A stretch of 64,000 bases of DNA, from contig JAYWIR010000049.1 in the NCBI GenBank assembly GCA_036172245.1, positions 682,001 through 746,000 on the forward strand, read 5' to 3'. The position numbers and the translations under genes are program-made. A model generated the notes under the pieces. It saw only the letters and a program-made list of their open reading frames with translations. It did no database searches and was not told the DNA's origin. Shown here in pieces: positions 1,084-41,365 of the stretch (position 1 is the stretch's first letter; every line of letters begins with the position of its first letter). Origin of the DNA: Raillietiella orientalis (lineage: Eukaryota).

Positions 1084-1118
<35 letters not shown>

Positions 1119-16857: not shown

Positions 16858-16938
16858 AATAATTTTACTAATGTTCTTTCTTTCTACCAATACTACTCTA
16901 CAACGAAATCTCTCAAGTTCAGTTTTGCGAAATATTTC
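16858..16938 (+). repeat. 81-bp direct repeat, left copy flanking the composite insertion
   Basis: aataattttactaatgtt...gttttgcgaaatatttc matches 18107-18187 with 4 mismatches. Confidence 0.9.
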
Positions 16939-17875: not shown

Positions 17876-17880
17876 CCCGG

Positions 17881-18106: not shown

Positions 18107-18187
18107 AATAATTTTACTAATGTTTTTTCTTTCTACCAATACTACTCTACAACGTTATCTCTGAAGTTCAGTTTTGCGAAATATTTC
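18107..18187 (+). repeat. 81-bp direct repeat, right copy
   Basis: Matches 16858-16938 with 4 mismatches. Confidence 0.9.
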
Positions 18188-18624
18188 AAATGCAGAATAA
18201 CTATGTTCTCTCCATAATGAATGAAAAAGACTATCAAAAATGTACCATTTGTAAGAAACGTTAACTGCATTCGTAGTTCTTGTGTGCATTTGTAATAATT
18301 AGTCCTCCGAAATGCCACCAAGAAATATTTTTCTCATTAAATGTTAAAGTTCAGCAGAATAATCTACGCAAACCTATATAAATGAGAGTTATGATGTCAG
18401 TTATCTACCTTGACAATTAAATAAGCAATTAATAATAGTTATAAAAAACTGTTAATGGAGTAATACAGAACATGTACCTTTGCCCACCAGTGCTATAGTT
18501 TTCAACAAAGCACAAAGTTATGTTGCATACTGTTGCTAAGATGCACAAGTTTTTTTTAATAAACTGACTTTTAAAAAATGGCTTTTTCCATTATCATTGT
18601 ATTTCGAGATCGAATTATTAGATA

Positions 18625-19690: not shown

Positions 19691-21405
19691 CTTCCCTCCA
19701 GCTCCCAGGGACCCTATTCCGAGGAAACCACCCCAATGGTGACACTGCAAACACTACGTGTGCAAAGCAGCGAACTGCGGAAACCCACATAGGAGACGTG
19801 AGAGAATGATGCAATCAGTTGATATTGTTGCCATTTTGACATTTGTTGTGATCAATAAACTTACCCCACCGCTTGTCAGGCCTGGGGAAAAATTATCAGA
19901 TACAGTTTTTATGATAAGGCAATGGGACCAACAAAGTGTTCATTATTATTGCATTTTCAGTTTCTTACATCAGCCCAAACTTACGTCACATAAACTCAAA
20001 CGAGAATTGTAAAATGTTTTTCATTCATTTTAATATTAAAACTCATTTGTTCGTTGTTACTTAAATTCAAATAAAGCTACATAAAAGAGAGCAACATGAA
20101 ATTTCTGATTCCTATTTCAATTTATTCATTAAGAAAAGTGTACAATGTAGTAATATCAGGAATCCAAGTATAAATCAAATGATAAATGCAAAGGAAGGAA
20201 GAATATTTGATTTTCATTTGATATTTGATGCGTTAAGATAGTCTAAATATACAAATCTTTTACTCCTTCCCAACACTACTGGACTGTTCACAGATAAGCT
20301 GAACCGTTTCATTTCAAAATTTGAAAAACACTCAGGACTTTGGACAAGCTTTAGAAAGAATTCTCCAAAAAGTAAAGAATTGTTTACAAAGAATTCTCCA
20401 ATTCATCGTTAAAGAGAGAGAAGATGCGATGTAGGTTATTTACCGAGTGATAGGATGGAATTCTCATGCGCAGATGCAATATCTGTTTTATTCATGAATG
20501 ATCAGTTGATGACAGGACACAAGAAACATTAAAAAAGATGGTTTTGAAATCGAATTAAAATACCAAATTGTTTTGACTCTTTTACCCGCACAAGTATTCT
20601 TTTAACTTCCAACTTAATTGTTCACTGAATTTTTTATTCATAATTGCTGAAACGGTGCCAATTTTCTTGAAAATCTGCACCCAGAATTAATCAAGAAATT
20701 GATAAAATTTCAACCCTCATATGAATCCTTTGCTTTGTATATCGAAGAATTTTGCTTCATATCAAAGCTTCAGGGGAGATGATTTCCATCTTCAACCATT
20801 GTCTTTGTGGTTGATAGCGCTGAGCATATAACTAATCTATCTATATAAACTGCAATTAATTAATCATTATTTGATTTATAAATAAGTATAAATGTTATAA
20901 ATAATTTGTTTAACTTTCTAAGGCTGCAACAATTGCTCACTGGAATCCTGTTTTGTATTTTCATTAGCTTGCCTTCTCATTTGTAAAGATATAGTTTTGG
21001 CAATGCTTTAGCGGGAAAATGTGAACATTTAGCTACAATCAGCTGTTAAAGAGCATGTGTTTGGTATTCTGTAGTAGCGCCGCTCAAATTGAGAGAATGA
21101 GGAAATTTCTCAAATTTTAACTCTTTACCTATTGTTTGTACAGTTATTATGATGAAATTTGTAACAAGATGTCTTATGACGGTAAAAGTTTTTGAGTTCA
21201 CTAAATCTCTACTGTCTCTACTCCTTGTATTGTTTATTAAAACTGTGTATTTTATTATGTATGTTTGTATTATTGCATTAGTCACAATTATTATAGAACT
21301 TAATTGCCATTTCTTTATCGCTTTATTCATTTTCATGTTTTAGATCCAATATTTTCTGCATTCATAAAAGTGTTGTGGATAATCCCCATGTGAATCCTTG
21401 TTAAG

Positions 21406-22626
21406 ATGGTTGGGTATTTCAACAAACCAATAGACCGAAAAACCGCTTCCATAACGAAATTTAAGGAAACTAAGTATGGGCTTTATTATACTATATCGTT
21501 TCAATGAATGTATTGATATTTTATTGGCACTCCAAGATTTGTGATCTCTAATTTTCATTGCTTATTTCTAGTTGATAAAGAATTTACTTATTTATAGTTT
21601 ATGTAAATTTATTAGGAAGGAAGATTCCTCAGAATTCAGATTTCAAGAGGCTTCTGAAAGTAATGCGGTGTATACAAAATATGGATTTGTTGAATGCCCT
21701 GATCTGCAGTGGAGAGTGGGATGGCTTTTGAATATGCATCCTGTAAGTCATCAAGAATTCTGTTTCAATATTAGCTGCAAACATTATCTGTTAGACCGAA
21801 ATTTTGGATGAAAATGGAAGTTTTGTTAGTGCAGTTGATTACTACTTCATTCAGGAAGATGGAAAGAGATTTAAGGTGTCACTTCCATTTCATCCTTATT
21901 TCTATGTGCTTGCTGAATCCGAATATCATCAAGAACTCCAATCCTACTTGCTTAAGAAATTTGTTGGTTGCATTGCAAAGATTGAATCAGTTTTGAAGGA
22001 AGATTTAGATTTGGTGGGAACATTAGTAATTTGCAAATATGAATTTCAAATTTCAGCCTAATCATTTGATTGGTATTAAAAGGAATTGCTTGAAGTTATC
22101 ATTTTTTACAATTAGTGGCTTATTAAAAGCCAGAAAGGAACTACTTCCATATGCTAAAAGAAATAAAGAACATAGAAAAACACATTCTGTATATGTGAAA
22201 ATGCTAAAGGAAAGTATAACAGAAAAATCCAGCAGTTCAGAAATTTGTAAAGAGCCTCTGGAAAATATCCTTGACCTCAGGTGCTTATTGCATTTTTTTT
22301 CTTTTTGCTTCATATCATATTTTAGGGAATATGATGTACCATATCTCATAAGAGTATCCATTGACTTAAAGGTCTTTGTTGGTCATTGGTACAGTGTGAA
22401 AGCTAGTCAAACTGCAATTCCGGAAATAATACCCAGGAAGGATCTGATCGAAAATCCTGATTGCATTGTCTTAGCATTTGACATAGAAACTACTAAATTA
22501 CCTTTAAAATTTCCTGACCCAGGGACAGATCAAATAATGATGATTTCATACATGATTGATGGACAGGTAAACAGAAATATCTCGGAAATTGTATTTGATG
22601 TTATGTCTGCGGTTTCTTCTTCCTTT

Positions 22627-22657
<31 letters not shown>

Positions 22658-25600
22658 TTTCTTTTTTTTGCCAAAATATATACTGGCACAATTTGATAAA
22701 GTCACTGTAATGAAAGTTTGCTGAAATGAAAGGATTCTAATTCATGTTTATTTTTCTTAATGAATTTTTAGGGATTTCTGATTATTAATAGAGAAATTGT
22801 GTTGTCTGATATAGAGGATTTTGAATATACACCTAAACCAGAGTTTGAAGGACCTTTTACAATCTTCAATGAATCTAATGAAATGTGCCTGCTTCAGCGA
22901 TTCTTTGATCATATTTTGGAATTTCGACCCCATATATTTGTGACATACAATGGTGACTTCTTTGATTGGCCCTTTATAGAAGTTCGTGCATCATTTCATG
23001 GATTAGATTTATTAAAGGAAATTGGCTTTTCAAAAAATAAAGATGATGTTTATTGTTGTCAGTCTGCAATACATATGGATTGCATTAAGTAAGTTGAAGC
23101 ATGATTTTGTTCCTGGTTCTGAACTTGTAATTAAATACTTAAGAACTTTAGAGCTATCCTATTTTCCTCCATGTAGCAGGATGTTATTTGGGTAGTATGA
23201 ATAAATTTTGTGTAAATTCCAAACAGCTGCTGTTTGGATCCGAGAAGTTGATTGATTGATTGTCCGTAATTTGTGTTTTCCCCTTATAACATAAACTGGC
23301 GATAGTTACTGTTGAGTGCATCTCATAGTTTGAATTCAAATTTTGTGCCCTTGCTGTTCAGTAATCCAATTCAAACTGGATTTCATAATCTTGTGCATCT
23401 TATAGAAACATTTTTTTTTTTTTTCAGAGAACTGCTAGTTTTCACAAACCATGTGTAAAAGAATTACGAAAACAATCTATCAGTAGTATAATTCAAATAT
23501 TGCTAATTGTAGTATGATTCAAATCTTTAAAAAAATTAAAGTATTTCGTGAGTTATCATCAATAAAGTTCCACAGAAGAAGCAATTTAGGTTATCCCCAA
23601 ATTGAGTAATTGGTTAATCAGGGTATACTTTGAAAATAAGTTTTGTCACTTATGTCCTGTATAATTGTTTTAGCATTGTTTTGGTTGTATGTAGAGCAAA
23701 CAACTATCATTTATTGTGTCAACCTTTGCAAACGATTAAAAGCATAAAAATATTTAAAAAATCCTTGCATCAAAATGAAACAGTTAAGAGATTGTGATTT
23801 TCAATTTAAGAACATTGGGGAATTTTGTTAATTATATGTACATATACTTGTGATAACCATAGCAAGATATGCATGAGGTTAAACATAGCATCAAAATAGA
23901 CTAATACATCCAAAAATGATTTCATTTTCATTAAAAACAATTCAAGCTTGTAAATTTAGCTCCAATTGTCTATGCATTCTCAAGGGAAGCAGAAGGTGAA
24001 TTTGTCATCCTAAAGTTCAGAAATGTTTCCTTGCGAATTGATAATTTCCAAAATATCAGGCCTGGTGATCGTAGAATCAGGTCATTAGGAGAAATTTCAC
24101 ATCAACAGTGTATCTAAATCCTATCTACAGAGAAGTGCTGCCTATTTCTTTAGAGTATTTATGTACCCTTTGTAAACGATAAGTCCAGATACTACTGTAT
24201 AATAGTGAAGAAGCTGGAAGTTTCGTTTTGAAAATGGTGCATAAGCAATTTAAGCACATTACGTAGTGTTCTTTAGTGTAAAAACAAAAGCAACTAATAA
24301 GAGGTTTCCCATTGTTTTCTCATTGCTTTTTTCATACTTTGTGCATATTGTATGTGTAGGACATTCAGAGTGCATTCTGAAAAAAAAAAGTGATGGTATG
24401 CCATGTAAAGTGCTAGTTTAAAGAAACATTACAGTTTTTCTTGTTTCACATCTCTAAGTTTTTATAAGGAGCATAGTGGCAAATGTATGTTCAACTAAAC
24501 TCAGATATGTTTCCTTCAGTTTTGTGCTTTTATAACTTTGTCACGTTTTGTGATTAAATGCATTAGAAAGCAATTTGTATATTTAATTTAGCATATTTGT
24601 GCAGATTTTTCATTTCTAATAAATTATGTATCACTTTATGAACAACTAAAAGGATTGTATTTATTTTCTAATTGATCAGAACCCATGTTTTTTCTTGCAG
24701 ATGTTTTGTAATACATTTCCAGTGTCTTTAAAAATGAAATTTCGATCATATGGAAGTTCTGTGCATCATTTAAAAAATAAAATATGAATCCAAAAGGCTG
24801 TATCTCATCTTCAATCTTTTAAAATTGAAGGAATTCAATTTAAGAAAGTAAATTATTTTTTACATTATATCATTCCACATTTTTGCAATTAGAAAGCATT
24901 ATTTGCTTAAGGATTGAAGATGAGATAGGTTTTTGGATTCAGATTAAATTCTTTAGAGGAAGCACGGATAATTTTGTATATATACCAGAATTATCTAATG
25001 TTTTCTTGGGCAATTAGAATTATTATTATCTGATGTTTTGTTGGGTAATTAGAATTATATTATCTGATGTTTTCTTGGGCAATCATGGACTTGATACATG
25101 AAATGTTTTTGTCCTTATTCAATGTAGAGTACATATTACAATATTGAATAAAGTGTATCTAATTTAGAAACTGTAAAGCAGAAAAATGTTGAACACCAAT
25201 GCTTGTTTTTGTAGTTGGTGTATATCAATATTTGTGTTTGAAATTGTAGTTGGGTGAAGCGTGATTCGTATCTTCCTGTTGGTTCCCATGGATTAAAGGC
25301 TGTGACAAAAGCAAAACTGTGTTATGATCCTGTGGAATTGGATCCAGAGGATATGTGTCGCATGGCTGTAGAAAATCCTCAAGTATTAGCTAGCTATTCA
25401 GTTTCTGATGCTGTTGCAACATATTATTTATATATGAAATATGTTCATCCCTTTATTTTTGCACTCTGCACAATAATCCCCATGGAACCTAATGAGGTGA
25501 ATAATTTCTTGACTTTTTCGAATGGAGGCTTTTTAACAGAATTGATAAAGGTTCTAAGAAAAGGATCTGGTACTCTTTGTGAAGCTTTGCTTATGGTCCA

Positions 25601-28600
25601 GGCTTTTCATGCTAACATCATCTTCCCAAATAAACAAGAAACGATATTAAATAAACTAACTGATGATGGCCATGTTTTGGATCAGGAAACATATGTAGGA
25701 GGTCATGTAGAAGCACTGGAATCAGGTGTATTTCGTGCTGATATACCTTGTAGATTTCGACTGGTAGATTGTAGATTTTCAATTACCGTTTTCCTATATT
25801 TTTTAATTCCAGAATCCCGAGGCATATTCTCAACTTATTGCTGATGCAGAAAGAACCTTAAAGCATGCTATAGAAGTCGAAGAAAAAATATCAGTTGATG
25901 ATGTAGTCAATTTTGATGTAGTGCTTAATGACATTGTTGGGAAACTTGAGAATTTCCAGCAAATTCCAAATCGCATTGAAAATCCCATTATTTATCATCT
26001 GGATGTTGGTATGAAATTTGTGGCAAATTATTCATTGTATATTTTCTTTTTTCTTGTGTTCAGCTGCCATGTATCCAAACATTATTTTGACGAATCGTCT
26101 TCAGCCATCAGCTGTGGTAGATGAAGCAGTTTGTGCTTCCTGTGATTTTAATCGACCAAATGCACAGTGTCAGCGCAATTTATCATGGACATGGCGCGGA
26201 GAATTTAGTATGTGAGACTTTAACCAATTTTTTTTAGTTGTTTTTGGGCAGTGCCTGCTAGTAAAAGTGAATTCTGGCATATAAAGCAACAGTTGGAGAC
26301 AGAAAGGTTTCCTCCTCTTATACCTGGTGGAGCATATAGGGCATTCCATCAGTTGCCTGCTGAAGAGCAAGCATCTATAGAAAAAAAAAGATTATCAAAC
26401 TATTGTAGGAAAGCTTACAAGAAAATTCATGTTACAAGAACAGAAATCAAGCAAACAACTATTTGCCAAAGAGAAAATAGTTTTTATGTGGATACTGTAA
26501 GAGCTTTTCGTAATAGAAGGAATGAATATAAAAGCATTCTTAAAGTAGGTCTGAATAGTGGTTGTTGCATATTCTATTCTGTTTTCTTTCTGATATTTAG
26601 AATGCCAAGAAAGATGTGCAGAAAGCTATGGAAAAGGGTGATGCTAGTGAAATAAAATCTGCAAAGAATCGTGAAGTTTTATATGACTCTCTTCAGTTGG
26701 CACATAAATGTATATTGAATTCATTTTATGGATATGTTATGAGAAAAGGGTGAGTACAGATCGAATTCCTTTATTATAGTTAATTTTCCTATCAGTGCTC
26801 GATGGTATAGCATGGAGATGGCTGGTATTACCTGTCAGTTAGGAGCAGAAATCATTACACAAGCAAGACAAGTGGTAGAACAAATAGGGCGGCCTTTAGA
26901 ACTGGATACAGATGGGATCTGGTGTATCCTTCCAGCCTCCTTTCCTGAAAACTATGAACTTGTAATAAAAAATAGTAATAAATCACATGTTACTATCACC
27001 TACCCAGGAGCAATGCTGAATGTAATGGTTAAAGTAAGATAGCATTTCGTAATCATAAAACATTTAAGTTTTGCAAGTGATGGACATTTTTATAGTAAAT
27101 TGTTCTTATTACTTGTTTATTTATGTTAAGGATTTGTTTACCAACCACCAATATCATGAATTGGTAGATTCTGAAAACCTAGTCTACGAAATAAGAAAGG
27201 AAAATTCCATTTCTTTTGAAGTGGATGGACCCTACTTAGCTATGGTTCTGCCTGCTTCTAAAGAAGAAGGGAAGAAATTGAAAAAAAGATATGCAGTATT
27301 CAATTTCGATGGCTCTCTTGCAGAACTGAAGGGGTAATCTTCTATTCTTTCTTGATTCATAGATACGTATCCTCTGTAAACTTTTGATTTCATATGTCAC
27401 TTTTAGTTTTGAAGTTAAAAGAAGAGGTGAGCTGCAGCTAATCAAAATATTTCAGTCTTCAGTCTTTGAAGCCTTTTTAAAAGGCGATACTTTGGAATCC
27501 TGTTACCAGGCAGTTGCTAAAATTGCTAACTATTGGCTTGATGTATTGTACAGCAAAGTATACTTTGAAATATTACGAATGCTCGAGTGTCCGTATAATT
27601 TAGGCCTCAAATTTGCCAGATGTGGAGTTATTTGAGCTGATCTCTGAAAATCGATCAATGGCACGCAAATTGGAAGATTATGGTTCTCAAAAATCTACAT
27701 CCATTAATACTGCCAAGCGTTTAGCCGAATTTCTTGGAGATCAGATGGTCAAAGATGCTGGTTTATCATGTAAATACATTATCAGCAAGAAACCTGAGAA
27801 TGCACCAGTTACTGAAAGGTCAGAGGTGTAGTTAACGTAATTAACTAACAGCTAACCTAATTATTTGGGGCATGTTTACATCATTTGCAGTGTTTGCAAA
27901 TGAAGTTTTTGCACATGCGTACATAAAATAGACTTGAAAAATAAATAAAATAGCAGTTTACAGTTTATGTTGCATTAGCATTTGTTTGTTTGGTGCTTCT
28001 GGATGTAACATGAGAGTTTAGGAATCTATTGCTATCCAAATTTGGTTATGAAACCTCCTTGTATTAGTACTTGATAAAGTCCGCTGAGTAAAGCATGAAA
28101 GAGCATATGCAAAATAGCAAAAATGCCTTTGTGATTCAAGTTGTAGACTGTAATGCATATTTTCTTAATCTGAGATAGCCAGTGCATTTCTTGAGTGTTT
28201 AAGCTATTTGGGAAACATCGTTGTCTCAATCATTATTGTGCATATTTAAAACCATACAAGTTCGCCGCTTTCAACTTATTGGAGTAAATAAGAAAAGCGT
28301 TTATTTTCAGAGCGATTCCCCTAGCCATATTTCATGCTGAGGACAGTGTGAAAAGATATTACTTAAGAAAATGGCTGAAAGATTCTGCAATGGAAGATTT
28401 TGATATACGAAATATTTTGGATTGGAGATATTATATAGAGAGATTAGGAGGTGCAATTCAGAAAATTATCACAATCCCAGCAGCATTGCAAGGGGTACTA
28501 TCTATTATTCTGTCATAAATATGTATACGTTCACAACTATCAGCTTGCCAATCCAGTACCAAGAGTTTCTCATCCAGAATGGCTGCATAAAAAGATTCTT

Positions 28601-31600
28601 GAGAAACATGACAGTGCAAAACAGAAACGTATATCAGATATTTTTAAAAAAAGTGCACCTCGGGAAAAAACTAGTGAAAAATGTGAACCTGCAAATACTG
28701 AAATTCCAGAAACGAGAGATCTGGAAGATATCTTGGAAAAATCAAATAAAAAGGATCTATTGCCTATTAAGCGGAAAGCAACTGTTCAATTAAGACGCAA
28801 AGTTTCTGCAACCAAAAATTGGAGAGATGTTCTAGGAATGGCTCCCATTCTAAATGATGATTATGTGAGCAATATTAGAATGGGTGATTCTGTTTATTGC
28901 AATGTTTTATAGAGTAACTTCCATAAGTGGCTGGAATTTCATAAACAGAAATGGAAATATCAGTTGGAACAGCGAGCTGCAAAAAAGAAGTGTCTAAAGA
29001 CTTCAGATTCACAAGTTTCTTCAAAACGTTTGCCATCAGCAACCATGGAGTATTTTCTTCAAAAAACTCAAAAATCTCTTTATCAAACACCATGGCAGAT
29101 CATCCAGGTATATGTAATTGTAATGCAAGGAGACTGTCAATATAATATATTTACAGATTTGCAAAACAAGTAATATTGGAATATTTAAATTTTGGGTGTT
29201 AGTTGGATCGGAACTTCATCAAATCAAAGTATATGTGCCCAGAATATTCTTTGTAAATCAGCGATTTCCAAAGCCAGCTAAAGAAGGAAATGTTTGGAAA
29301 AAATGTAGCAAAATTCTGCCTCGATCTCATCCTACTTATTTCTTATATGAGTATCGTATTCCGGAAGAGCTATTTCAGCAACATTATGGGTAAGCAGAAA
29401 AAAGCATTTGGGAACTAATTTGGGAAAATATCTAGAGAACTAGCAGCGGATTTATCTACTCCTGATATAGAAGGCATTTATGAAACTCAAGTCCCATTGG
29501 AATTTAGACTTTTAGTCCAGTTAGGCTGCATCTGTAAAGTGAATACCAAAGCAGACCATTCAGACTGCGACATGTTTGAGTTGGAACAACTTGAGTTCTG
29601 TCCAGTTGCACATCAGCCTTACTTAGCAGATGATATTTTGAAATATATCTATTTATACCAATATTCATCAGGGTCCAAAGCAATGTGGGGACTTTTTGTT
29701 TTGCCCAAATTTATTGCTCATGTTTTTGTGCTGGATACAGTACGAAGTAATCAAATGCCCAATTTAAAAACCATGCTTAGTGCTGAAATCAAATCCAGGT
29801 TTGCTTGTTCTTTGTTTGTATAAACTAATATACCAGTTACTATAGGAAAGAGAATATATCAGCAACAAATGGCAACATGCATATCAAACAATTTGAAGTT
29901 CATCTAGAAACTGAAGTCAAGCAAGTCCATCAAACTATACAGAAGATTTTGTTGCAGTATAAAGATGATAAAAGAGGTCCAACTGCAATTGCTGTCCAGT
30001 CAGTATTTGGTGCGTTAGAGCACTTAATGCTAGTCAGATCACTAATTTTCCTTCATCTTTAAGGATTTCCCGCCTTGTTAGAATCCATCTCTGGGATCGG
30101 AGATTTCCCTTTGATACCAATTTATGTCACAGATGCAGATAATTTGTATAATGTTTTGGATTGGCAAAGAGTTGGCTCCAAAATTATGATTCGTCATTTT
30201 TTGAACTTTCATCTGATATTACAAACAACTATAGAACAGTGTCGGTATTTTCAAATTCCTATTGGAAATCTCCCTTCTGATCCAACATTGTTTGGTGCTG
30301 ACCTTTTTTTTGCACGCCATCTTCAAAGGAGTAACCATATTTTATGGTGTTCCACTAGTGAAAAACCTGACTTTGGGGGCAAAGAATGGGATGATAGTCG
30401 GTAGATATTTGAAAGCATTAAATGTCCCATTTTAACTCTATTGTTGTAAAGATTAATGTTAGACTTTGATGACAATACTGGCATTGCAGTTAATTACAGT
30501 GGTTCTTACTCAAGTGCTTGTGTGGAGTTGGAAGTAGATGGCTTAGCAGTCAATGCATTATTACAAGCACATAACATCAATGACCTTGAAGGTAAAGAAT
30601 GACGATATAGGCAAACATTGTCAAAATATCTCATGAATGTTGAGTATTTGTGATAATTTCATACTTTTTAATCAAAAATCCCGTGTGATGCCCTGGATCA
30701 TGTGACAGTCTCTGTATCTAGGCACCTGCAACAACATAGCATTTGATGCACAACCAAAAATTTCATTGGAGAGTTTGATTGGGGGACAACAGGACAAAAG
30801 GTTTTTCAGCAGCTATGATGAGACAACTGCTTGTAGTGGAGCTTTCCGCATATTGCGTAACATGGTTACCTGCTGGTTACGAGATGTATCTGCACATGGG
30901 AATGTCTTTGCTGATTTCCAGATCATGCATTTTTACAGGTAACAATGCTATACAAATCTAAATCTAAGACGGATTTGCTTTGTAAAGGTGGTTGCATTCA
31001 CCACTTGCTCTGCTTTATGATCCTGCCTTTAAAAAAATTCTTCATAATTTAATGCGAAAATTATTTTTCCAGGTAAGTTTTTCCTTTCACTTTCCAAATG
31101 AATTCTAAATGCATTGTATTTTATTAGCTCATTGCAGAATTGCAGCGACTAGGTTCTATGCTCATTTTTGGAGATTTTACAAAGGTAATCATCTGCACAA
31201 AAAAGCATGATCTGGAAGCTGCAACTGCTTATGTAGAATATGTACTTGAGAGAATAAGAAATAAGGACTTCTTTCACAGTCTGGAAATCCGTGTAGAACA
31301 GTGGTGGGAGTATCTTTTATGGTTAGATGCGGTGAGTTTGGAAGAATGTACCTGAAAACTTTGTCAATATCTTCAGAACAATCACGGAGGTGTTCTGGGA
31401 GTAAATGCTTCTGAACAAGCTGTTAATGCAATTACTTTGGGAGAAGAAGAATTTTGTGAGGTTGTGCCTGCCTAATTGTCTAATAATTATTCATCCTATT
31501 AGCCTGTAGTTGAAATGAATTGGAATCTTGTTCAGTTTTTGCCTGAAGATGGTGACATTCAAACATATTTCAATTCCATCATAGCAACATATATTAGTAC

Positions 31601-33307
31601 TGTCCATGAAAAGCTGAAGGAACTAGGATTAGTGAACACTCCCCAGTACAAACGTCTCAGCATTAGTCAAACTGCATTTCAGAGAAAATATGCTGGAAGA
31701 GAATCGCAGCAGTTGACAGATTTCTGTCGCCAGCTTGTTTCTGGAGAAATGGCACAGAGATTATTTCAGTAAGGTTTTTGTTCGAAATTCCGTCATCTGA
31801 AAATTCATAGGGTAACTGAGAAAATTTACAAAAAACTTGGACCAAAAGCAGCTGTCAATGTTTTTCCATGCTTACCCGGATCCCATTTGCAAATGAAAAA
31901 TCCTTCATTAGAATTTATCAAAGCAATTTGCAAGGTACATCAGATAATTTTCTTAAAAGATAATGCCACATATCAGATTGTAGTGTATGTTGTGATTTTT
32001 TTTTTTTTCCTAATATTGCTTCCAATTAAATGGGTATTGAATGTTTATTTACGAATGTTTGCAAATGTTGAATTCATGGAATTGGAAGTTTCCTGTGTTC
32101 TGTTTTTGTACAGTTTATTCTTTGTACTTTGGAATTTATGCAAAATGCAAATTTGAGTTCTGTAGCTGCAGAAACTTTTCCCATAATAGTATTAGGAGAT
32201 TGAATACCATTCTTGTTTTTCATTTTAAGTTTGTTTAAAAGTAAATTAAATTTTCATTTTCTACACATTCATTTTTTTTGTGTGTGTGTTTCTTTCTCCA
32301 TTTTTGTGGCCTTGCATGGCAAAATTTTTGTAACTTAACATTTGTCAATAAGAACATTGGTATTTTACTGATTTACAATATTTAAAAATCGGCTTGCTTT
32401 AGAATTTGTTTACTTTTAAAGGGTTATAGAGAGGAATTAAATCTGCAATCTGAAAAAACAGTCCATTGCTCTTAACTTTTGTATTATTCACTTTTATTGT
32501 GAAATGATTGTTCTTTGTGATCTCAAGAATTTTGTAGTTTACAAAATCTTTGGCAAATAGAAATTCATATTTAGATACATAATTGTTGTGTATGTCTGAT
32601 TAGTGCTTTTATTTTTCACTATTTGCTTTTAACACAATACGTAGTTGGACTTTTTAAGTACGACTATTCTTCAGGTATTATCACTTGATTCCTCCATTGA
32701 AGAAGAAGTTTCCCAGTTGAAACGTAACCTTCTTCGTCTCATTGGAATCGGAGAATTCAACGAGGAGTCTGAATGGAAAGATCCTTGCACTAGTCAGGTT
32801 TTACCAGAAATAATTTGTAAAACATGCAATCACTGCCGAAATTTAGACCTCTGTAAAGACCCAGAGATTTCTGAAGAGAACGGAATGTTTGTATTTGGCT
32901 GCAACATTTAACAAATTCATGTTATGTATGTATTTTGCAGGCCTGTATGGAGGTGTGTTCTTTGTAAAAGTTGTTATGATACTCTAGAGATTGAAGGTCT
33001 GTTGCTTAATTTGGTTCATCGAAAGATTATGGCTACAATCCTCCAAGATCTTCAATGTACGAAATGTCAAGAGGTGAGTTTTCAGGATTTAATTATTTTT
33101 CCCATGTACCTTGATCTTTAGGTGAAACAAGCCAATATGGGTCATTATTGTTCATGTGGTGGTAGTTTCTCGTTAATGCTGTCTCAGACGGATTTTATGA
33201 AGACTCTGACAACATTTCAAAATGTTGCAAGTTACTTTCATATGCCTTTGCTGCTGGAAACAGTAAAATGGGTCCTTTCTACTATGTCAATTAAATGTGA
33301 TAATTAA
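21406..33307 (+). CDS. POLE: DNA polymerase epsilon catalytic subunit A, 33 exons, 2230 aa
   Basis: Exons: 21406-21473 (least certain), 21616-21742, 21795-22013, 22057-22280, 22326-22566, 22772-23088, 25250-25496, 25551-25763, 25813-26008, 26064-26207, 26252-26544, 26601-26749, 26796-27033, 27131-27333, 27407-27557, 27604-27818, 28311-28494, 28544-28864, 28913-29107, 29157-29389, 29436-29798, 29846-30009, 30064-30400, 30452-30591, 30722-30938, 30988-31072, 31128-31331, 31377-31460, 31503-31768, 31811-31934, 32675-32886, 32941-33073, 33122-33307. Total 6693 nt, all GT-AG and phase-consistent. Motifs: Exo[71 protein letters not shown], CysX CASCDF...C, and C-terminal CysA/CysB. Confidence 0.97.
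24785..24941. repeat. Inverted repeat (MITE-like fold-back) in POLE intron 6
   Basis: tgaatccaaaaggctgtatctcatcttcaatc (24785-24816) is nearly the reverse complement of gattgaagatgagataggtttttggattca (24912-24941). Weaker complementarity extends about 25 nt outward. Confidence 0.7.
24990..25083. repeat. Minisatellite, about 35-bp unit x3, in POLE intron 6
   Basis: Unit approximately attatctgatgttttcttgggcaattagaatt, repeated three times. Confidence 0.8.
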
Positions 33308-33423
33308 ATTGTAAAATTCTTTTTAGCGTTTAAATTCAAGGTGGTAAGCAAATCTGTGCTGTCATTTTAAACCACCATTTTGCCGTAATATTTCTGTGTA
33401 AAGTACTAATTAGGAATAATCAG

Positions 33424-36400
33424 ATGCTTTATCTTATTGGACTGGGTCTTAGTGGAGTTGATGATGTAACAGTCAAAGGACTGAAGATAATTAAGAAATG
33501 TAAAAAGGTTTATTTGGAATCTTATACATCTATTTTAGGAGTCGACCAGAAATCCCTTGTAAGTACAATCATTAAACAATATTTAAGCAATTATGGGGTC
33601 CCTATTTCCTATCGTATGCGTAAAATTTTCCGAAAGTGAAAGAGATGAACGTGACATTGCCTGATTTAAAATTGCCGATATTTTATTATGTCGTGACGCC
33701 CATTCCTTGATGATAAAATGAAAGGCATATGACAACTATAAAAGCATGTAGCATGATTATTGTTCGTTGTTTTAGGCACGAGTTTCTTTTTTTTTTTTTA
33801 AAGCAATCTTTGTTTCGAATAAAATGGTGCTGTGTTAGGTTTGACTATAGCTACATTGGATAATTAGTAGGCAAGTCATATGGCAAGGCTCTGATAATGT
33901 TTAGTTTCCAACGTAAACTTTTGTATTATTAATGTGCTTATGCGCATGAATTGTACCTTTACTTTACTTTAGAGGAAGCAAGCAGTGAGATCTTGGTTAT
34001 TTTCATGAAAGAAAAGCGCTCAAAATTTGGAATCCCTATTTATGAAATTCGTTTGAATGTCATCAATCCGAATTCAGAGGTTTTACAATAATAATATAAT
34101 ATAATTTTTTGCATATTTTAGTGGGCACTCAAAAGCGTTGCTCGCCTTGAGTAAAGAGTTGTTTTGGGATTCGTGTGTTCTCACAGGGTGCAAATAATCA
34201 CAACGTGCTTAGTAAATAATTGTTAAATTGATGTTCATGAACGGAGCACAGCAATCACAAGTTTGCATGATGTGTAGGAAAATTATCTCCAAAGCATCAG
34301 GAATTTAACTTCAACGGACATTGTGTTTACGATTTCCCTAGTTCAGATGTGTCGTCACTCAAATAACTCACTTTTTCTGAGGTGTGTATCCTCACATCAG
34401 AGTCCTCCGGTAAACGGAGGAAAAGGGAACCGATTCGAGTGCTGCCAGGACCGTAGACAGTAAAGAAGCAAGTATTCCAAGTGACTTACCTTAAGTCTTT
34501 GTAGACAGCTGTCGTTGATGGAATGAAAACTAACCAATAATTCACTGTGCACATCATTTTGCTAATATCATTTCGAAATTGCATCAGTCAAAGCAAGACG
34601 GAAGTGGAGATGGTAAGATGGTGGCTTCCCAACAAGTTGCAGGTGGTCAAAGATACGTTTTGTTTCCCCAAGACTTTGTTTAGTCTTGAAAAATGAGTTC
34701 TGTCTGGGTTCAAAACACACACACACAAAAAAAGGACTCGTGGTTTATGTTTTCGCTATTTTTGAAATAGCAGGGACTCGTGTGCATTTGAAAGTTCTGT
34801 TCATAAATTCGGATTTATTGGAATGATGTAATATTGTTTTATAAAGTGCGTTTTATGTCAGAAAACGTTGTAAGGATGTTTGGGGAGGGAGGCAAAGAAA
34901 AGCAGTTCGTGGTATTCAGGGTAGTGAACAGTAAAAGCGATCCAAAAAGCACTATTGAAAAACACAAGTGCTGATTGATGCTCTTCAAAAATGAAGGGCA
35001 AGGTGGCCGAAAGAATTCGTCTAGCATCCGAAACGAAATTCGATCTTTGCCAGAAAAGAGAGTATTGCATACGCTCTTGGAAAAAAAAAAAAAAACAGAG
35101 CAGAAGATCCTCACTATTGAAGGAGTGCATGAGTGCATACTTCCCGATTTCAGGAATGGACTTTGGAAGCTGAAGATAATACGCAGCTGAAGTAACCATC
35201 CAAGTTGAAAGGGCAAAAAGAAAGATCAGAGGTCAAGGAAGAGCATCTATTTTCATACAAATGAAGCATGAAACACGACGAATCAGGGGACGAAAGAAGT
35301 AAAATTAATTAATCTAGAAATAATTGTGTATCACTGAAAATGTCCCGGAGGGAAAAAAGTGTGTGTTGGGAGGAGGGGACTTCTAATCTTGTACTTGAAA
35401 GAACTGAAGGTTGGAGCTGGACAGACAAAAGTTTCATTCCTAGAAATACGCTGACTTGGAGGACACATTTTATGCGTATTACATTTATTATAAAGATGGG
35501 ACATAAATTGTCAAAGCGAAAGTCACCGAGCTTTTGAGTCTAATGCCAAGCGGGGCTCAAGGAGCTTACAGAACTCATAAAAAATCGCATTTTACATGAA
35601 ATGATGTGAAGTAAAGGTATTCTAAAACAACGTTTAAACAACGTCTCACTTTATAAAACCAAGAGGTCCTCTTATACGATACATTTAGGAATGGTTTCAG
35701 TACTCCTTTCTGGGGCTTTTGCGGCGGGGGAAGTAGAATCAATCAAATTCACATCATTTAAGCATTTGAAAAGCGTACATTACATTCCGAGAACGCGATG
35801 CACTCAGCACTGTGTTGTATTTCCCGAGTTGGAGTTTTATCATGCGGAAAGCTCGGGAAACATCGTAGGATTGTGAACTGTACTATCAGGAGGTATCCCA
35901 CAAGTCTGAAAATTTGTGGTCAGTACGTGTCATTATGTTCCCTAATTGCACGCATTCTGCTGATCTATTTCCACGGGGCTGTAACATCAGTGTTAATCCC
36001 TTAATGCCACGCATTTGCGGTGATGGTCAGTGGAATGTGTGGCACTAGGGAATATAACGTTGATGTTATTGCTCCGACCTTATACTTTTGTCTGTTTGTA
36101 AACGTGCTGGCTTTTGAATACGATGAATTAACATTTGCTGATGATTGTACTGGTGGCCGGACTCGCAACTCTGCTTCTTGAAGGCCCGGTCTTTCAAGCA
36201 CCTCCCACTGCCGCCCACAAACTTAAATACTAGTGAAATTATCTCATCAGGTATAGGATCGTGAAATGTATCTATGTAGAGAAAACGAAAAGTAAGCGGC
36301 AGAGAATCATGCGACAAAAAAAAAAAAAAAAGTGCAGTATTCGTAAGTCTTTTATGATCAGGTGAACGCTTGGTAACACTTGGTAGTGGGACGAGAACAA

Positions 36401-39400
36401 GCAGTATATTAAGAGGAAAGTAAAGACTAAAGTCTTAAGAGGCATCATGGTGAATTGTATTATAGATTTTCGTTATTTCTTTGTGAATTGCTTGTATAAG
36501 ACTTCAAAGGCAAAGTAATCAATCCGTTGCGACCATCTTTGAAAACTAACTAACATAAGTTTTTCTATGGTTTTCTTCTATGGTCTTTATGATCTTGGAG
36601 ATCAGAATTGTTCCATCGGTTGTTGTGTATTCTCACGGGTACCAGACCAGCGTTACTTTGCGTCCCTGGCCAAATGAAGACGCGTTCCTTTTTCAATCAA
36701 GGACTTTTCTCTGATAGCGTTTTTCTTTTTTTGCTAAAGTTGCTGTCTGCTTGCATCGGAAGCCCTCTTTTCCTCGTCTGCTGCTAAACGTGACAAGTCT
36801 ACCGCCGCATTCTTCGTATTCAGAGTTACAAAAGCTGGATGTGGCATTCAGAATATCAGCTGCAAGTTATTAGTTTTATTTTCTTTGAAGTCTCACAGTT
36901 CGAATCCCGCGTAGAATCAGTTTCAATCTGAATCCCGCGGAACAGGATTTTAAAACTTCGGGTTTTTCGAGAAAATTCGATTCTTACAGGGAAACCTGTG
37001 CTGGAGAAACTGCGCACACATTCTGTACCAACGCAGACTCTTCCAAAAATGTGTAGTGGCTTGTTAAACATTAAAAAGAAGCTTAAGTTGTTTTTTCTTT
37101 TTCCCTCCGTGAGTTGTCGAGAACAAACCTTTCTATGATGTCTGATCGCACATTTTTCATGCTCTTCCTTCCAGCACTCCCGTATAGGACTAGACAACGG
37201 ACAAGGGAAATTCTTTTCCTTTACTGTCAGCAAACACCGAGACCCACGGGTCTTTTGAGGACGCTTTGTAACACCACTTACAATTTGAGGATACTTTTGG
37301 GTGAACAAGCCCCCTCCCCCTCAAAAAAAAAAAAGAGAGGTGTTCCCTGCAAACAGAGGAATATAAAGAAAGTTGCCTGTAGAGCTAGTTGATTCTGAAA
37401 AACTGTGGTTGCAATTTTGTACACAGTGATCATTCCAAAGTCCTCACCATTGCCGTTGAAAACCCCGTGTTCACAATATGCCTTTCTTTAATGGAATCTG
37501 CTTCCATCCATCTGCATTCGGCACATTACTCCTCTGCTTGGAAATCGGTAACCTCAATTCTTCCACTCTTCATCACATTGCTATTTTCATGTACTTCAGA
37601 AAACCCAAAGCCTATTTTTCGAAGTCAGAAACCAAAGCTGCGGATGGAGGAGCTTTTAGTGCCTACTCAAGCGCTTTGAATGGCTTTATTTCTTATCCCA
37701 ATTTCGGAATCGACACATTTCCGTACTTTCCCCCGATAATTGCATAAGTGTAAATACTATCTTTTCCGATGTCTTAGGAAGCGTTTTATGAGCGTCCAAT
37801 TTCTTTGGCTGACCGTCTCTTCGTGGAAGAGGAAAGTGACTGCATTCTTGAAGAAGCTCGGAATGACGATGTCGCCATGCTTGTGGTCGGGGATCCTCTT
37901 TGTGCCACAACTCATTTAGATTTATTGGCACAAGCGGATGCCAAGAAAGTCAATTATTCTATTGTGCATAATGCATCTGTGCTGACAGCTGTAGGATGCT
38001 GTGGTCTGCAGCTCTACAGATTTGGAGAAGTCGTTTCCATCCCTTTTTGGACGGAATCGTGGAAACCGTTCAGCTTCCTGGACAAGATCGAAGGAAATTT
38101 GTCTCGTAGTCTTCATACTCTTTGCCTCCTTGGTAAGAATATTTTACCACTCTTATTTGCACCAAAACCGTCATTACTTTTCGAATTACGCATTATCCTT
38201 GCACGACTTCCGAGAAATCTTTCTGCACGCATTTTTTTTTTTTTTTTCCCTGTGATTTCCCTTTGTTTCGTCTCACCGGATTTCTCAAAGTCACCCAAAA
38301 GTTCTTTCATACCGATCAGTAAACTTGACGGTGTGCACTCCGAGTTGCAGATCTCTACCGTATAAGCTTATTTGAAAGCAAAAGGCAAAAAACGTGTGAT
38401 AGTTTCTGCATTATTATTTATTTCGCATGTGCGATGGATTAGTTTTCTTGCTTCGTCTACTGGACTGTTTTTCGGGTGGTTTCATCAGGATATTTCCTGT
38501 GAAGATTTTCAGTTTGGCGGTACTTTGAGAACTTCACCGACATTACCTGCACACATGCCTTCAGTTTCTTCTTGTTCATTAATTTCATGACTTTTTTTTT
38601 TTTTTTCTCTCCTACTTTTGCTGTTAAATCGCAACTTCCTGTGGAAGCAGAGAGAAGTTCAGTGAACACGGTGTGCCGAGTGCGTTGTCCGTCAGCCGTG
38701 ACGTCACGCAACGAAGTTGAGAAAAGCAGGGATGCCGCGGGTTCCATTTTCTACCCGTACAGAAGTTTCACTTACCATTCTGACGGTTTAGAGACAATTC
38801 AAAACCGTCAGTGACATGCCCCGAAACTGTCTGTGTTTGAACTTCCATTGATTATTGATTTTCCAATGGATGTTACTTATTTTATGTTTGTTTTTGCTGA
38901 TTCGGGTCCAATTAGGGCGATGTTTGCCATTCACTCACTGAAAAGCGTTCGTTATGATGGGAGAGTGAGTTGGCGTTGGAAATCTACGTGTGAATTGTGG
39001 AGGTTTCTCGAAGGAAGGATAGGGTGAAATCGACTATTAAAGTTGGGATTTCATCCTTTTACACGGGATAGTAGAAACTTGCCAGCGTCCGTGGTGGCAC
39101 TGCGTTTCTTCTAGTTTACGAAGTAGCTAATTTTTTTTTTTTCCTGTGATCAAAGCTGGAATCAAGGCACATTCGATGCGAGAGTAGTAATTGGGGAACG
39201 AAAATACACACCAATCGGTGATTCGTCCCTGTGAAATAGAAACTCAAGAAATCCAGCGGTCGCTTTTTTATTTGATCCTTCAGGCTAAATTGCTATGTTG
39301 AGTTTCATTTGATCAAAGAACAAAGTGTTGGCAACCCTTCTGTTTGAGTGCCTCTGTTTCAAAGTTCAGAGGGGCGCACTTACCTTGCTTTCAAGATGCA

Positions 39401-40869
39401 ACTGAATAAGAGCATTTCATCGATTTTACTCAATTCTCTTGCGTGAATTGCTGCTTCACGTATCATGCAAATTTTTTCAAGCTGTGATTTGATCTACAAA
39501 TCGCATTCGGCAAATCAATGAGCGGTGTGGGGTCAGGTTTGCCCTACGCACGGTTCATCAGGTAGATGATCTTTTTTGTTTGGGAGGAATAGCTGCGACC
39601 CGGAGCTCGAGAGCAAGGATTAGAGCACACCGGAAGCAGCACAGGCTTGAAAAGAAGGAGGAAGCATCAGTAACAATTTGTCTGGACCAATACCTTCGAT
39701 ACTATTTGTCAGATTTCCGGTTTCGCTCGCGGTGAGGATCGTTCCGTGTACCATATGTAATACCATGGACGTGGACCACACAAAGTTGTTTGAAGGTTCC
39801 ACCACTCGGTACAGAACTTCTCATTAACGAAGCGGCGAGTGTGCTTTTTTCTTTCTCCTTTCCTTTCACGAGCAGTTGGTATATGGTAGGAGATTTGCTT
39901 TTCGAGAGATTCACCTGATTCCGTATCTTTTCGATTACCGATGTCCATAAATATTATTCGATCTTCAGCCGATTTTTTCTGAATCAATACAATACATGCA
40001 TACATATATTAGTAATTAGGGGATGGAGCACTAGGTAAGGAGGTAACGAGGACATTATGTCTGCGATTCGCAACATGAAATTAGAATTATAGAAGCATTG
40101 CAGTTTCAGTTTTGGAACACTTGGAGGTTCTCCATTGCCATAACTGGCGGTTTGTTGTTATACCGTCGGTCAGTTTCAAAGTTATCGGAATGGGAGGTAA
40201 TTGGGACAAAGTGCTTTGGCTTCTTCGGAGTAGTTTGCTACTCTCACCTACTGCTGCAAATTGTACAACACCTTGCGAATGCGGAGATTCGTGTCCGCGC
40301 GGTCCAGCAGACCTCGCGTTGTTAGGAGGACACTCGGAGTGACGCACCGGTTGAATTGATTTCGCGAGTAAATCACAGTTTGAAGCGTTTCGAGTCGACC
40401 CTCAAGTCGAAGTTGATTGATGGCCCTGCGAATATTACTTCAAGCAGCTGCTTTCGTTTGGAATGTACTAATTGGTGCTTCTCTAGATATCCGTATGAAA
40501 GAACTTTCTCAAGAACATTTAATGAGAGGCAAAAAAGTTTACGAGCCAGCCAAGTTGATGACTGTTCGTGAAGCGGTGGAGCAATTGCTCTACATCGTAG
40601 AAAGGAAACCGTCCGTTTGTACAGCTGGTAAGAAATGATTTTTCATCTTTTAATGCTTTTGCATCATTTCCTGATCAAAAATGTGGTCAGATTCCTTGGC
40701 CGTCGGGATCGCTCGCTTGGGCAGCGATTCCCAGCAAATAGTCGCCTCGACGTTATCGAATCTCACGAACGTCGATTTTGGTGCTCCTCTGCATTGTCTG
40801 GTGATCCCAGGGGAGCTGCATCCTTTGGAAAGGGAGTTTTTGTCGAAATTTCAGTGGCCGCTTCAATAA
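33424..40869 (+). CDS. DPH5: Diphthine methyl ester synthase (diphthamide biosynthesis 5), 4 coding exons, 269 aa
   Basis: Exons 33424-33558, 37778-38132, 40487-40627, 40691-40869 (810 nt, GT-AG, phase-consistent). Motifs MLYLIGLGL...[96 protein letters not shown]. Confidence 0.95.
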
Positions 40870-40870
40870 A
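40865..40870 (+). terminator. Candidate polyadenylation signal AATAAA overlapping the DPH5 stop codon
   Basis: ctt caa TAA a contains AATAAA. Confidence 0.45.
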
Positions 40871-41365
40871 TCCCTGTTTGAAGGAAAAGGAGGGGGGGGG
40901 GGAGTCCAAGACGGAGATTTGCTCTTTGTTTTGCTCTGAGGTTTCGGCTCCCACAAAGCATCCGCAAACAACAAGCACTTTGCTCGCGTGCATCATCTTA
41001 CACTGTCGTGTCTCGAGACGTCGGAGACGTTGGAGGGTTTTTACGCAACCGTGACCCACGATTTTTCGTTTTTTATGCACCCAGAGGCATCCCATTGGCT
41101 GCGTGGAAGCTTTCTCTTTCGAGTCGTATCTTAATGTATGTAATGTAAGGACTTTTTTATGGGCAACTTTTCTAGAGGGATTGTACCGAGTACCAGTACT
41201 TACAATGTTTACTACCATCTTCAGTTGTTCTCTGCTCCACGTCACAGGTTTGGAGAGCAAGGAGGACCCCCTTATGGGCGTCTCAAAGTCTTATGTGTGG
41301 CGAACAAATCTCGCGTGAAACAAATAAGCATGTGAGGCGAATAAAGGAGCGATGAAGATGTCTCC

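What the first reader, a model, noticed from the sequence alone, without database searches (positions are those of the whole stretch)
33305..33426. POLE and DPH5 are 116 nt apart with an orphan splice acceptor: candidate operon, trans-splicing site or shared-promoter locus
Seen: the POLE stop (33307) and DPH5 ATG (33424) are on the same strand with 116 nt between them. The gap has no AATAAA, only ATTAAA overlapping the POLE stop. It is filled with splice signals: a pyrimidine-rich acceptor ttctttttAG (33325-26), a 17-nt segment, a strong donor GTAAGC (33344), a branch-like TACTAAT (33404-10) and CAG directly before the ATG. Inference: DPH5 has an 80-nt 5' UTR intron plus an upstream acceptor with no local donor, leaving almost no room for its own promoter. 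Established: about 100-nt spacing with a poly(A) site followed by an unpaired acceptor is the layout of nematode and tunicate operons resolved by spliced-leader trans-splicing, and SL trans-splicing is known in some crustaceans. Alternatives are a dicistronic mRNA, a first exon shared with POLE, or a promoter inside the last POLE exons.
Basis: partly seen in the sequence, partly recalled or inferred. Interest (0 to 1): 0.75.

Follow-up and report, generated by a model that had tools for sequence, protein, structure and literature searches.

The report
Tight POLE-DPH5 pair, possible operon
Two unrelated housekeeping genes of an arthropod-like animal lie head to tail only 116 bases apart, and the spacer holds a real-looking small intron; this fits one shared transcript cut up by leader splicing, but no RNA data could be obtained to prove it.

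Summary
A complete POLE gene ends at TAA 33305-07. A complete four-exon DPH5 starts at ATG 33424 on the same strand, 116 nt later. The window holds no other DPH5 first exon, so DPH5 transcripts must begin in or upstream of this spacer.

Splice matrices built from 32 introns of these two genes gave these results:
- The donor at 33344 is the best non-annotated GT of 750 in the 14-kb AT-rich block. Chance of such a donor in 116 nt is about 0.9%.
- An acceptor abutting the ATG has a chance of about 1.4%. The 80-nt 5'UTR intron (33344-33423) is therefore probably real.
- The "orphan" acceptor at 33326 is not above chance (about 25%).
- The TACTAAT branch motif is not typical here (CTAAY in 4 of 32 introns).

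No RNA run was listed, no genome is held, and no close relative was found. How the short upstream exon gets its 5' end therefore stays open.

My best reading (about 0.5) is co-transcription with POLE and leader trans-splicing at 33326, 18 nt after the ATTAAA. The main rival (about 0.3) is a DPH5 promoter inside the POLE 3' end.

The scan found the same layout before on other DNA of this genome. One of those cases is reported with RNA support; I did not check it.

The parts
21406..33307 (+). POLE (DNA polymerase epsilon catalytic subunit) gene, upstream member of the pair. About 35 exons, mostly with introns of about 50 nt. The probable first coding exon is 21406-21473.
   Evidence: Pfam hits on exon ORFs: DNA_pol_B_exo1, POL2_thumb, DUF1744, zf_DPOE_2 and zf-DPOE. 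tblastn and my own spliced alignment with 5 homologs. Exon 1 joins 21616 in frame without stops; this is inferred, and its donor is weak (3.05 bits).
33122..33307 (+). Last POLE exon, with the C-terminal zinc finger and the stop TAA at 33305-07.
   Evidence: zf-DPOE, E 5.9e-12, profile positions 13-57 of 58. Homologs end within 2-4 residues of the alignment end at 33274-33280.
33303..33308 (+). ATTAAA poly(A) hexamer overlapping the POLE stop. A second ATTAAA lies at 33290-95.
   Evidence: Hexamer scan. Function is inferred. DPH5 shows the same habit, with AATAAA 40865-70 overlapping its stop.
33309..33326 (+). Pyrimidine-rich acceptor ttctttttAG with no donor between it and the last POLE intron. 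It is the candidate trans-splice site, 18 nt after the ATTAAA.
   Evidence: 5.42 bits, about the median of true acceptors (18 of 32 score lower or equal). 54 of 807 decoys score as high, and 25% of simulated spacers hold one, so it is not significant on its own.
33327..33343 (+). 17-nt segment between the acceptor and the donor: candidate mini-exon, or the 3' end of a longer first exon of DPH5.
   Evidence: Read from the sequence. It contains no ATG.
33344..33423 (+). Probable 80-nt 5'UTR intron of DPH5: donor GTG|GTAAGC, TACTAAT at 33404-10, and acceptor CAG abutting the ATG.
   Evidence: Donor 9.30 bits, rank 1 of 750 non-annotated GTs. Acceptor 4.36 bits (111 of 807 decoys score as high). 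Joint chance is 0.01% with the acceptor abutting the ATG and 0.075% with it within 10 nt. The length lies within the observed range of 42-4219 nt.
33424..33558 (+). DPH5 exon 1 (45 codons, starts MLYLIGLGL). It is the only DPH5 N-terminal exon in the window.
   Evidence: Five of 5 homologs align from their residue 1 here. tblastn with 7 homologs finds no second copy at E below 1. Pfam TP_methylase E 8.8e-6. Named homologs are diphthine methyl ester synthases.
37778..40869 (+). DPH5 exons 2-4 (37778-38132, 40487-40627, 40691-40869). Stop TAA at 40867-69.
   Evidence: Spliced alignment, identical in 5 of 5 homologs. Sequence read. Total 810 nt, or 269 codons plus the stop.

Best explanation
POLE and DPH5 form one transcription unit driven from upstream of POLE.

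Proposed steps:
1. RNA polymerase II reads through the POLE 3' end.
2. POLE mRNA is cut and polyadenylated about 15-25 nt after the ATTAAA that overlaps its stop.
3. The DPH5 mRNA gets its capped 5' end by trans-splicing of a spliced leader. The acceptor is AG 33326, the first acceptor after the last POLE intron that has no upstream donor to pair with.
4. The 80-nt intron 33344-33423 is then removed in cis. The mature 5'UTR is the leader plus 17 nt, directly followed by the ATG.

Shown here: the gene models, the 116-nt spacing, the lack of another DPH5 first exon, and statistical support for the donor and intron.

Inferred: co-transcription, use of the ATTAAA, leader addition, and which acceptor takes the leader (33326, or less likely 33340 or 33423).
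For: 1. DPH5 must start here. Five of 5 homologs place residue 1 at 33424, and no other N-terminal exon exists in the window.
2. A near-certain donor at 33344 (rank 1 of 750; 0.9% by chance) needs an exon upstream of it. That exon has only 36 nt between the POLE stop and the donor.
3. AG 33326 lies 18 nt after the ATTAAA, the usual hexamer-to-cleavage distance. No donor lies between the last POLE intron (33074-33121) and it, apart from a weak GT at 33311 (2.74 bits). So it is unpaired on a read-through transcript. Unpaired acceptors are the ones that get trans-spliced (Satou 2006, PMC1488885, passage read).
4. The pair is not squeezed by general compaction. No Pfam-detectable gene lies within at least 13 kb upstream or 23 kb downstream, and DPH5's own introns are 4.2 and 2.35 kb.
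5. No ATG occurs in the spacer.
6. Leads, not tested here: earlier notes of this scan list at least 10 other same-strand pairs 36-240 nt apart in the same genome. One of them (e1-7631493) reports RNA with a leader spliced on just before the downstream ATG.
7. SL trans-splicing exists in copepods and amphipods.
Against: - No RNA evidence exists for this locus.
- The acceptor at 33326 is no better than chance (25% of simulated spacers).
- No SL RNA gene is known to me for this organism. Rfam finds nothing in the window.
- Operons have not been reported for any SL-using arthropod (PMC7986045 passage), so the prior is low.
- The strong donor is explained equally well by an ordinary non-coding first exon that starts inside the POLE 3' end.
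- A 5' splice site 36 nt behind the poly(A) hexamer could hinder POLE 3' end formation (general knowledge, recalled).
- The supporting notes from other windows are AI notes that I could not check.
Confidence: 0.5

Rival explanations
1. DPH5 is an independent gene with an embedded promoter. Transcription starts inside the last POLE exon or its short 3'UTR, roughly 33150-33315. This gives a short non-coding first exon that ends at 33343 and is spliced to the ATG exon. The acceptor at 33326 is then a chance match inside that exon.
For: The donor and the 80-nt intron are explained just as well. The 33326 acceptor is at chance level. This is the default arrangement for animal genes, and arthropod operons are unreported.
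Against: The core promoter would have to lie within conserved zinc-finger coding sequence (zf-DPOE). By eye I found no exact TCAKTY initiator (consensus recalled) in 33122-33343 (sequence). The POLE poly(A) hexamers would lie inside the DPH5 first exon. The tight spacing contrasts with more than 13 kb and more than 23 kb of gene-free flanks. This reading does not explain why many other pairs in this genome are 36-100 nt apart (notes, unchecked).
Confidence: 0.3
2. A cis-spliced dicistronic mRNA. Read-through POLE transcripts use the donor at 33344 as an extension of the last POLE exon. They splice to 33424 and give one mRNA with POLE, a 36-nt spacer and DPH5. DPH5 is then translated by reinitiation or internal entry.
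For: Donor and acceptor are both present, and the POLE stop lies upstream of the donor. Dicistronic genes are known in Drosophila (recalled; also named in note e1-7632416).
Against: Reinitiation after an ORF of about 6.8 kb is expected to be very inefficient (general knowledge). Two ATTAAA hexamers at the POLE stop argue for POLE mRNAs ending there. DPH5 is an essential housekeeping enzyme that needs dependable translation.
Confidence: 0.07
3. A shared first exon. A non-coding exon upstream of POLE is spliced either to the POLE acceptor (21343) or, skipping all of POLE, to 33326. This would resemble loci in which one gene is nested in the first intron of another.
For: A very strong acceptor without a coding exon upstream lies at 21343 (9.02 bits; 4 of 807 decoys score as high, itself included). 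So POLE probably has an upstream non-coding exon or a leader of its own.
Against: It needs a 12-kb intron in genes where 22 of 32 introns are 42-56 nt. It would also have to skip about 35 good acceptors. No outstanding donor lies upstream of 21343 (best 5.69 bits).
Confidence: 0.05

Closest known systems
Caenorhabditis elegans SL2-type operons
   Same: Unrelated housekeeping genes on one strand. The spacer is about 100 nt (Satou 2006 passage, gives about 100 nt as typical). A poly(A) signal of the upstream gene is followed by an unpaired acceptor for the downstream gene.
   Different: No leader, polycistronic RNA or SL2-like specialised leader is shown here. The candidate acceptor lies right at the predicted poly(A) site and not about 100 nt after it. 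The rest of the spacer is a cis intron. No Ur element was identified.
Operons with little or no intercistronic DNA: Ciona intestinalis (Satou et al. 2006, PMC1488885), Oikopleura (23-30 nt), and C. elegans SL1-type operons
   Same: If 33326 is the trans-splice site, the upstream 3' end and the downstream acceptor nearly coincide (ATTAAA, then 18 nt, then AG), as in Ciona. There the acceptor AG abuts the poly(A) site (passages read).
   Different: Here a 17-nt mini-exon and an 80-nt cis intron lie between that acceptor and the ATG. The organism is arthropod-like. All RNA-level features are untested.
SL trans-splicing of copepods and amphipods (Yang et al. 2015, PMC4664967; Douris et al. 2009 as cited in PMC5111886)
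   Same: Crustacean lineages in which mRNAs receive a spliced leader. This shows the machinery can exist in this part of the tree.
   Different: No operons or polycistronic mRNAs have been reported in them (PMC7986045 passage). The Yang paper has 0 occurrences of 'operon' or 'polycistron'. The window's DPH5 is single-length, unlike the roughly 560-625-aa DPH5 of malacostracans including amphipods. So the organism is probably not an amphipod.
Drosophila-type dicistronic or overlapping gene pairs
   Same: Two ORFs on one strand with a tiny spacer in an arthropod.
   Different: In those pairs one mature mRNA carries both ORFs. Here poly(A) hexamers lie at the end of the first ORF, and a splice donor follows. 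This comparison is recalled, not tested.

Membership tests
SL-resolved operon (nematode, tunicate, chaetognath type) | Two or more genes on the same strand, separated by roughly 0 to a few hundred nt | tested here: met
   116 nt from stop to ATG, same strand. Both gene models are complete.
SL-resolved operon (nematode, tunicate, chaetognath type) | An unpaired splice acceptor upstream of the downstream ORF, behind the 3'-end signal of the upstream gene | tested here: inconclusive
   AG 33326 lies 18 nt after the ATTAAA, with no good donor between it and the last POLE intron. Acceptors of this strength arise by chance in 25% of simulated spacers.
SL-resolved operon (nematode, tunicate, chaetognath type) | The downstream mRNA carries a non-genomic spliced leader | not testable with these tools
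No same-species protein or transcript turned up in the protein searches (best identity 74-76% for exon 1 and 66-67% for exon 2).
SL-resolved operon (nematode, tunicate, chaetognath type) | A polycistronic precursor RNA spans both genes | not testable with these tools
   No reads available.
SL-resolved operon (nematode, tunicate, chaetognath type) | The organism has SL RNA genes (leader exon, donor, Sm site) | not tested
   No whole genome is held. The Rfam gathering scan of the 64-kb window gave 0 matches, which says nothing about the rest of the genome.
Ordinary gene with a non-coding first exon and a 5'UTR intron | Donor and acceptor of genome-typical strength, and an intron of typical size, upstream of the ATG | tested here: met
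   Donor 9.30 bits (rank 1 of 750). Acceptor 4.36 bits (15 of 32 true acceptors score lower or equal). Length 80 nt, within the range 42-4219.
Ordinary gene with a non-coding first exon and a 5'UTR intron | Its own transcription start and core promoter upstream of the first exon | not testable with these tools
   No CAGE or RNA data. Only a by-eye look for an initiator motif in 33122-33343, which found none. The tool's promoter scan is bacterial and was not used.
Dicistronic mRNA (Drosophila type) | One mature mRNA holds both ORFs, with no 3'-end signal used between them | tested here: inconclusive
   ATTAAA hexamers at 33290 and 33303 lie at the end of the first ORF. Whether they are used is unknown.

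The most novel reading that the evidence does not exclude
This locus is one of many true operons in an arthropod-like (by earlier notes, ostracod-like) crustacean. The polycistronic POLE-DPH5 precursor is resolved by spliced-leader trans-splicing at an acceptor that coincides with the upstream poly(A) site. The rest of the spacer is a cis intron, so the leader ends up 17 nt from the start codon. This would be the first operon organisation described in Arthropoda and a further independent origin of the operon-plus-leader system.
Probability: 0.45. Interest if true: 0.8.

Novelty: new member of a known kind. Interest (0 to 1): 0.5.

Why it matters
Operons resolved by leader splicing are known from nematodes, tunicates, flatworms, chaetognaths and some protists. 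For the arthropods that use spliced leaders (copepods, amphipods), no operon has been reported (PMC7986045 passage). My searches for ostracod plus trans-splicing or spliced leader gave only incidental mentions. The 2021-onward search for arthropod operons listed 15 of 37 matching papers, none of them on an arthropod operon by title or abstract start.

If POLE-DPH5 and the other tight pairs of this genome are co-transcribed, this animal would give a new, independent case for asking why leader splicing and operons evolve together. The locus offers a clean test: one 116-nt spacer, one candidate leader site, and one small intron.

If DPH5 instead has its own promoter inside the POLE zinc-finger exon, the locus is an ordinary, if extreme, case of gene crowding.

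Tried and rejected
- RNA evidence: the look-up of sequencing runs (kind rna, window 31100-33600) listed no RNA holder. None was listed, which is not the same as none existing.
- Whole genome: not held. No genome-wide spacing histogram or SL RNA search was possible.
- Relatives: the protein searches with DPH5 exon 1 and exon 2 found nothing closer than 74-76% and 66-67% identity. The N-termini of 12 top unnamed hits showed no informative 5' extension; they are distant relatives.
- Metagenome contigs: the last POLE exon gave 0 relatives. An exact 32-mer of DPH5 exon 1 gave 0 matches.
- Rfam: 0 matches in the window.
- RNA fold of the spacer: z-score -0.07, no special structure.
- Branch-point argument rejected: CTAAY occurs in only 4 of 32 true introns, against about 7% expected by chance per 38 nt.
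- A second DPH5 first exon, or a chimeric assembly, rejected. There is one N-terminal exon only, exon phases fit, and GC3 rises smoothly from exon 1 to exon 4 with the regional GC gradient.
- A POLE C-terminal extension beyond 33307 rejected.
- Earlier notes by sequence likeness to the spacer: none. By place near the finding: none.
Full report
**What is there.**
A script confirms it:
- TAA at 33305-07 and ATG at 33424-26.
- A spacer of exactly 116 nt (33308-33423), 30% GC, with no ATG.
- The acceptor-like ttctttttAG ends at 33326.
- 17 nt follow, at 33327-33343.
- GTAAGC starts at 33344.
- TACTAAT is at 33404-10.
- CAG at 33421-23 abuts the ATG.
- The only poly(A) hexamers in 33250-33600 are ATTAAA at 33290, 33303 (overlapping the stop) and 33571. 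There is no AATAAA.

**The two genes are real and complete.**

POLE:
- Pfam finds DNA_pol_B_exo1, POL2_thumb and DUF1744 on POLE exon ORFs.
- It finds zf_DPOE_2 and zf-DPOE on the last exons. The zf-DPOE match covers profile positions 13-57 of 58 within the final exon.
- Full-length POLE homologs came from a library search.
- By tblastn they align to residue 2249 of 2253, 2137 of 2140 and 2342 of 2344, ending at 33274-33280. The stop at 33305 is therefore the true end.

DPH5:
- A spliced aligner that I wrote gave the same four exons with 5 of 5 homologs. They are 33424-33558, 37778-38132, 40487-40627 and 40691 to the stop at 40867-69.
- Each alignment starts at homolog residue 1 at 33424 (sequence read).
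- tblastn with 7 homologs found the N-terminal 45 residues nowhere else in the window at E below 1.

DPH5 transcripts must therefore include 33424. They must start within 116 nt of the POLE stop or inside POLE.

**Are the splice signals more than chance?**

How the matrices were built:
- The five POLE alignments gave 51 candidate introns.
- I kept the 29 supported by at least 3 of 5 homologs and dropped 22. Two real introns, near 29800 and 31464, were probably lost because their borders were ambiguous.
- I added the 3 DPH5 introns.
- Of these 32 introns, 22 are 42-56 nt long. The rest are 63-4219 nt.
- Decoys were all other GT and AG dinucleotides in 20020-33990.

The donor:
- The donor at 33344 scores 9.30 bits.
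- It is the best of 750 non-annotated GTs, and only 2 of 32 true donors score as high in leave-one-out scoring.
- Only four non-annotated GTs in the block reach 7 bits.

The acceptors:
- AG 33326 scores 5.42 bits. 54 of 807 decoys are as good, and 18 of 32 true acceptors score lower or equal.
- AG 33340 scores 5.09 bits.
- AG 33423 scores 4.36 bits. 111 of 807 decoys are as good.

Simulation of 20,000 spacers from a first-order model of local non-coding DNA:
- 0.9% hold a donor as strong as the one at 33344.
- 1.4% have an acceptor of at least 4.36 bits abutting the ATG, and 11% have one within 10 nt.
- 0.01% show both with the acceptor abutting the ATG, and 0.075% with it within 10 nt.
- 25% have an acceptor of at least 5.42 bits in the first 10-60 nt.

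CTAAY branch motifs occur in only 4 of 32 true introns.

I conclude that the 80-nt intron 33344-33423 is very probably real. The 'orphan' acceptor and the branch motif carry no statistical weight of their own. The matrices rest on only 32 introns of two genes, so the scores are rough.

**What follows from a real donor at 33344.**
A donor needs an exon upstream of it. That exon can begin in one of four ways:
- (a) At a trans-splice acceptor. AG 33326 gives a 17-nt genomic piece behind a leader.
- (b) At a transcription start inside the POLE 3' end.
- (c) As a continuation of the last POLE exon on a read-through RNA.
- (d) At AG 33326, joined to a far upstream shared exon.

Points in favour of (a):
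- AG 33326 lies 18 nt after the ATTAAA, where POLE cleavage is expected.
- On a read-through RNA it has no upstream donor to pair with. That is the condition for trans-splicing stated by Satou et al. 2006 (PMC1488885, passages read).
- The same passages give spacer sizes of about 100 nt in Caenorhabditis, 23-30 nt in Oikopleura and none in Ciona. The layout fits the known range.
- The tight spacing is not due to general compaction. Of 226 stop-to-stop ORFs of at least 90 aa, plus 28 shorter ones inside the long introns and upstream of POLE, none outside POLE and DPH5 hits Pfam. The one exception is a weak DUF3223 match at 7152-7511.
- DPH5's own introns are 4.2 and 2.35 kb.

Points against (a):
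- No RNA run was listed.
- No genome is held.
- Rfam finds nothing in the window.
- Operons are unreported in SL-using arthropods.

**Context from the scan.**
These are leads that I did not test.
- Earlier notes on other pieces of this genome describe at least ten same-strand pairs 36-240 nt apart, with the same poly(A)-then-acceptor layout.
- One note (e1-7631493) states that RNA shows a leader spliced on just before the downstream start codon.
- Other notes point to an ostracod-like crustacean.
- My own data say only this: DPH5 exon 2 is at most 66-67% identical to anything in the protein collection. Its best named matches by identity are water fleas and mites. It is single-length, unlike the roughly 560-625-aa malacostracan forms.

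These notes raise my estimate for reading (a) to about 0.5. Without them I would put it near 0.3.

**Literature.**
- PMC7986045: one passage read. It lists copepods and amphipods among SL users without reported operons.
- PMC4664967: search listing and the start of the abstract seen. A term search found 0 occurrences of operon or polycistron.
- PMC5111886: passages read. The authors trim amphipod leaders. The only 'polycistronic' mention concerns a miRNA cluster.
- Ostracod plus trans-splicing found 3 papers, and ostracod plus spliced leader found 3 papers. None has the terms in title or abstract; I saw the listings only.
- Searches for crustacean or arthropod operons since 2019 and 2021 matched 72 and 37 papers, of which 15 each were listed. 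None of the listed ones concerns an arthropod operon by title or abstract start.
- I did not open any supplements.

**Verdict.**
Whether this is an operon or an embedded promoter stays open, with co-transcription plus leader splicing the best single reading (0.5). It is a further example of a pattern the scan already flagged in this genome, so its added novelty is moderate. The phenomenon itself, if proven, would be new for arthropods.

Noticed in passing
window 19950-42000: There is a sharp fall in GC from 47-56% to 30% at about 19950-20000. An AT-rich block (30-36% GC) holds all of POLE and DPH5 exon 1. GC then rises smoothly to 60% by 42000. DPH5 third-position GC follows the gradient: 0.27, 0.42, 0.43 and 0.61 for exons 1-4.
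   Followed up: partly
proteins P0121-P0140: DPH5 homologs of malacostracan crustaceans (crabs, lobster, shrimps, krill, mantis shrimp, amphipods) are about 430-625 aa. That is roughly twice the usual 275 aa, and they score about double. This suggests a tandem-duplicated or fused DPH5 in that clade. The window's DPH5 is single-length (269 aa).
   Followed up: no
window 33303-33308 and 40865-40870: In both genes the poly(A) hexamer overlaps the stop codon (ATTAAA with TAA 33305-07; AATAAA with TAA 40867-69). This implies 3'UTRs of only about 5-25 nt.
   Followed up: partly
window 21343-21616: Two of the six strongest non-annotated acceptors of the 14-kb block lie just upstream of the POLE coding start: 21343 (9.02 bits) and 21571 (8.50 bits). 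The likely first coding exon (ATG 21406 to 21473, weak donor of 3.05 bits) joins 21616 in frame. The acceptor at 21343 has no coding exon upstream, so POLE itself may take a leader or have a non-coding first exon.
   Followed up: partly
window 33339-33376: GGTGGT at the donor (33339-44) can pair with ACCACC (33371-76) inside the intron, forming a 6-bp stem over the 5' splice site in the minimum-energy fold. The spacer as a whole folds no better than shuffles (z = -0.07).
   Followed up: no
window 33340-33345: The acceptor-like AAG (33340, 5.09 bits) abuts GT 33341 (4.34 bits) and lies 3 nt before the strong donor. This is an acceptor-next-to-donor arrangement like a recursive splice site.
   Followed up: no
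window 1-20000 and 41000-64000: The GC-rich flanks (41-65% GC) have many long ORFs on both strands. None hits Pfam except a weak DUF3223 match at 7152-7511 (E 2.5e-4; 22 bits, cutoff 21). I did not determine what the flanks are: repeats, decayed elements or unrecognised genes.
   Followed up: partly
window 23089-25249, 31935-32674, 33559-37777, 38133-40486: A few long introns (2161, 740, 4219 and 2354 nt) stand among introns of mostly 42-56 nt. No Pfam-detectable ORF lies inside those I scanned.
   Followed up: partly
window 40893-40905: A run of about 13 G follows some 25 nt after the DPH5 stop and poly(A) hexamer.
   Followed up: no
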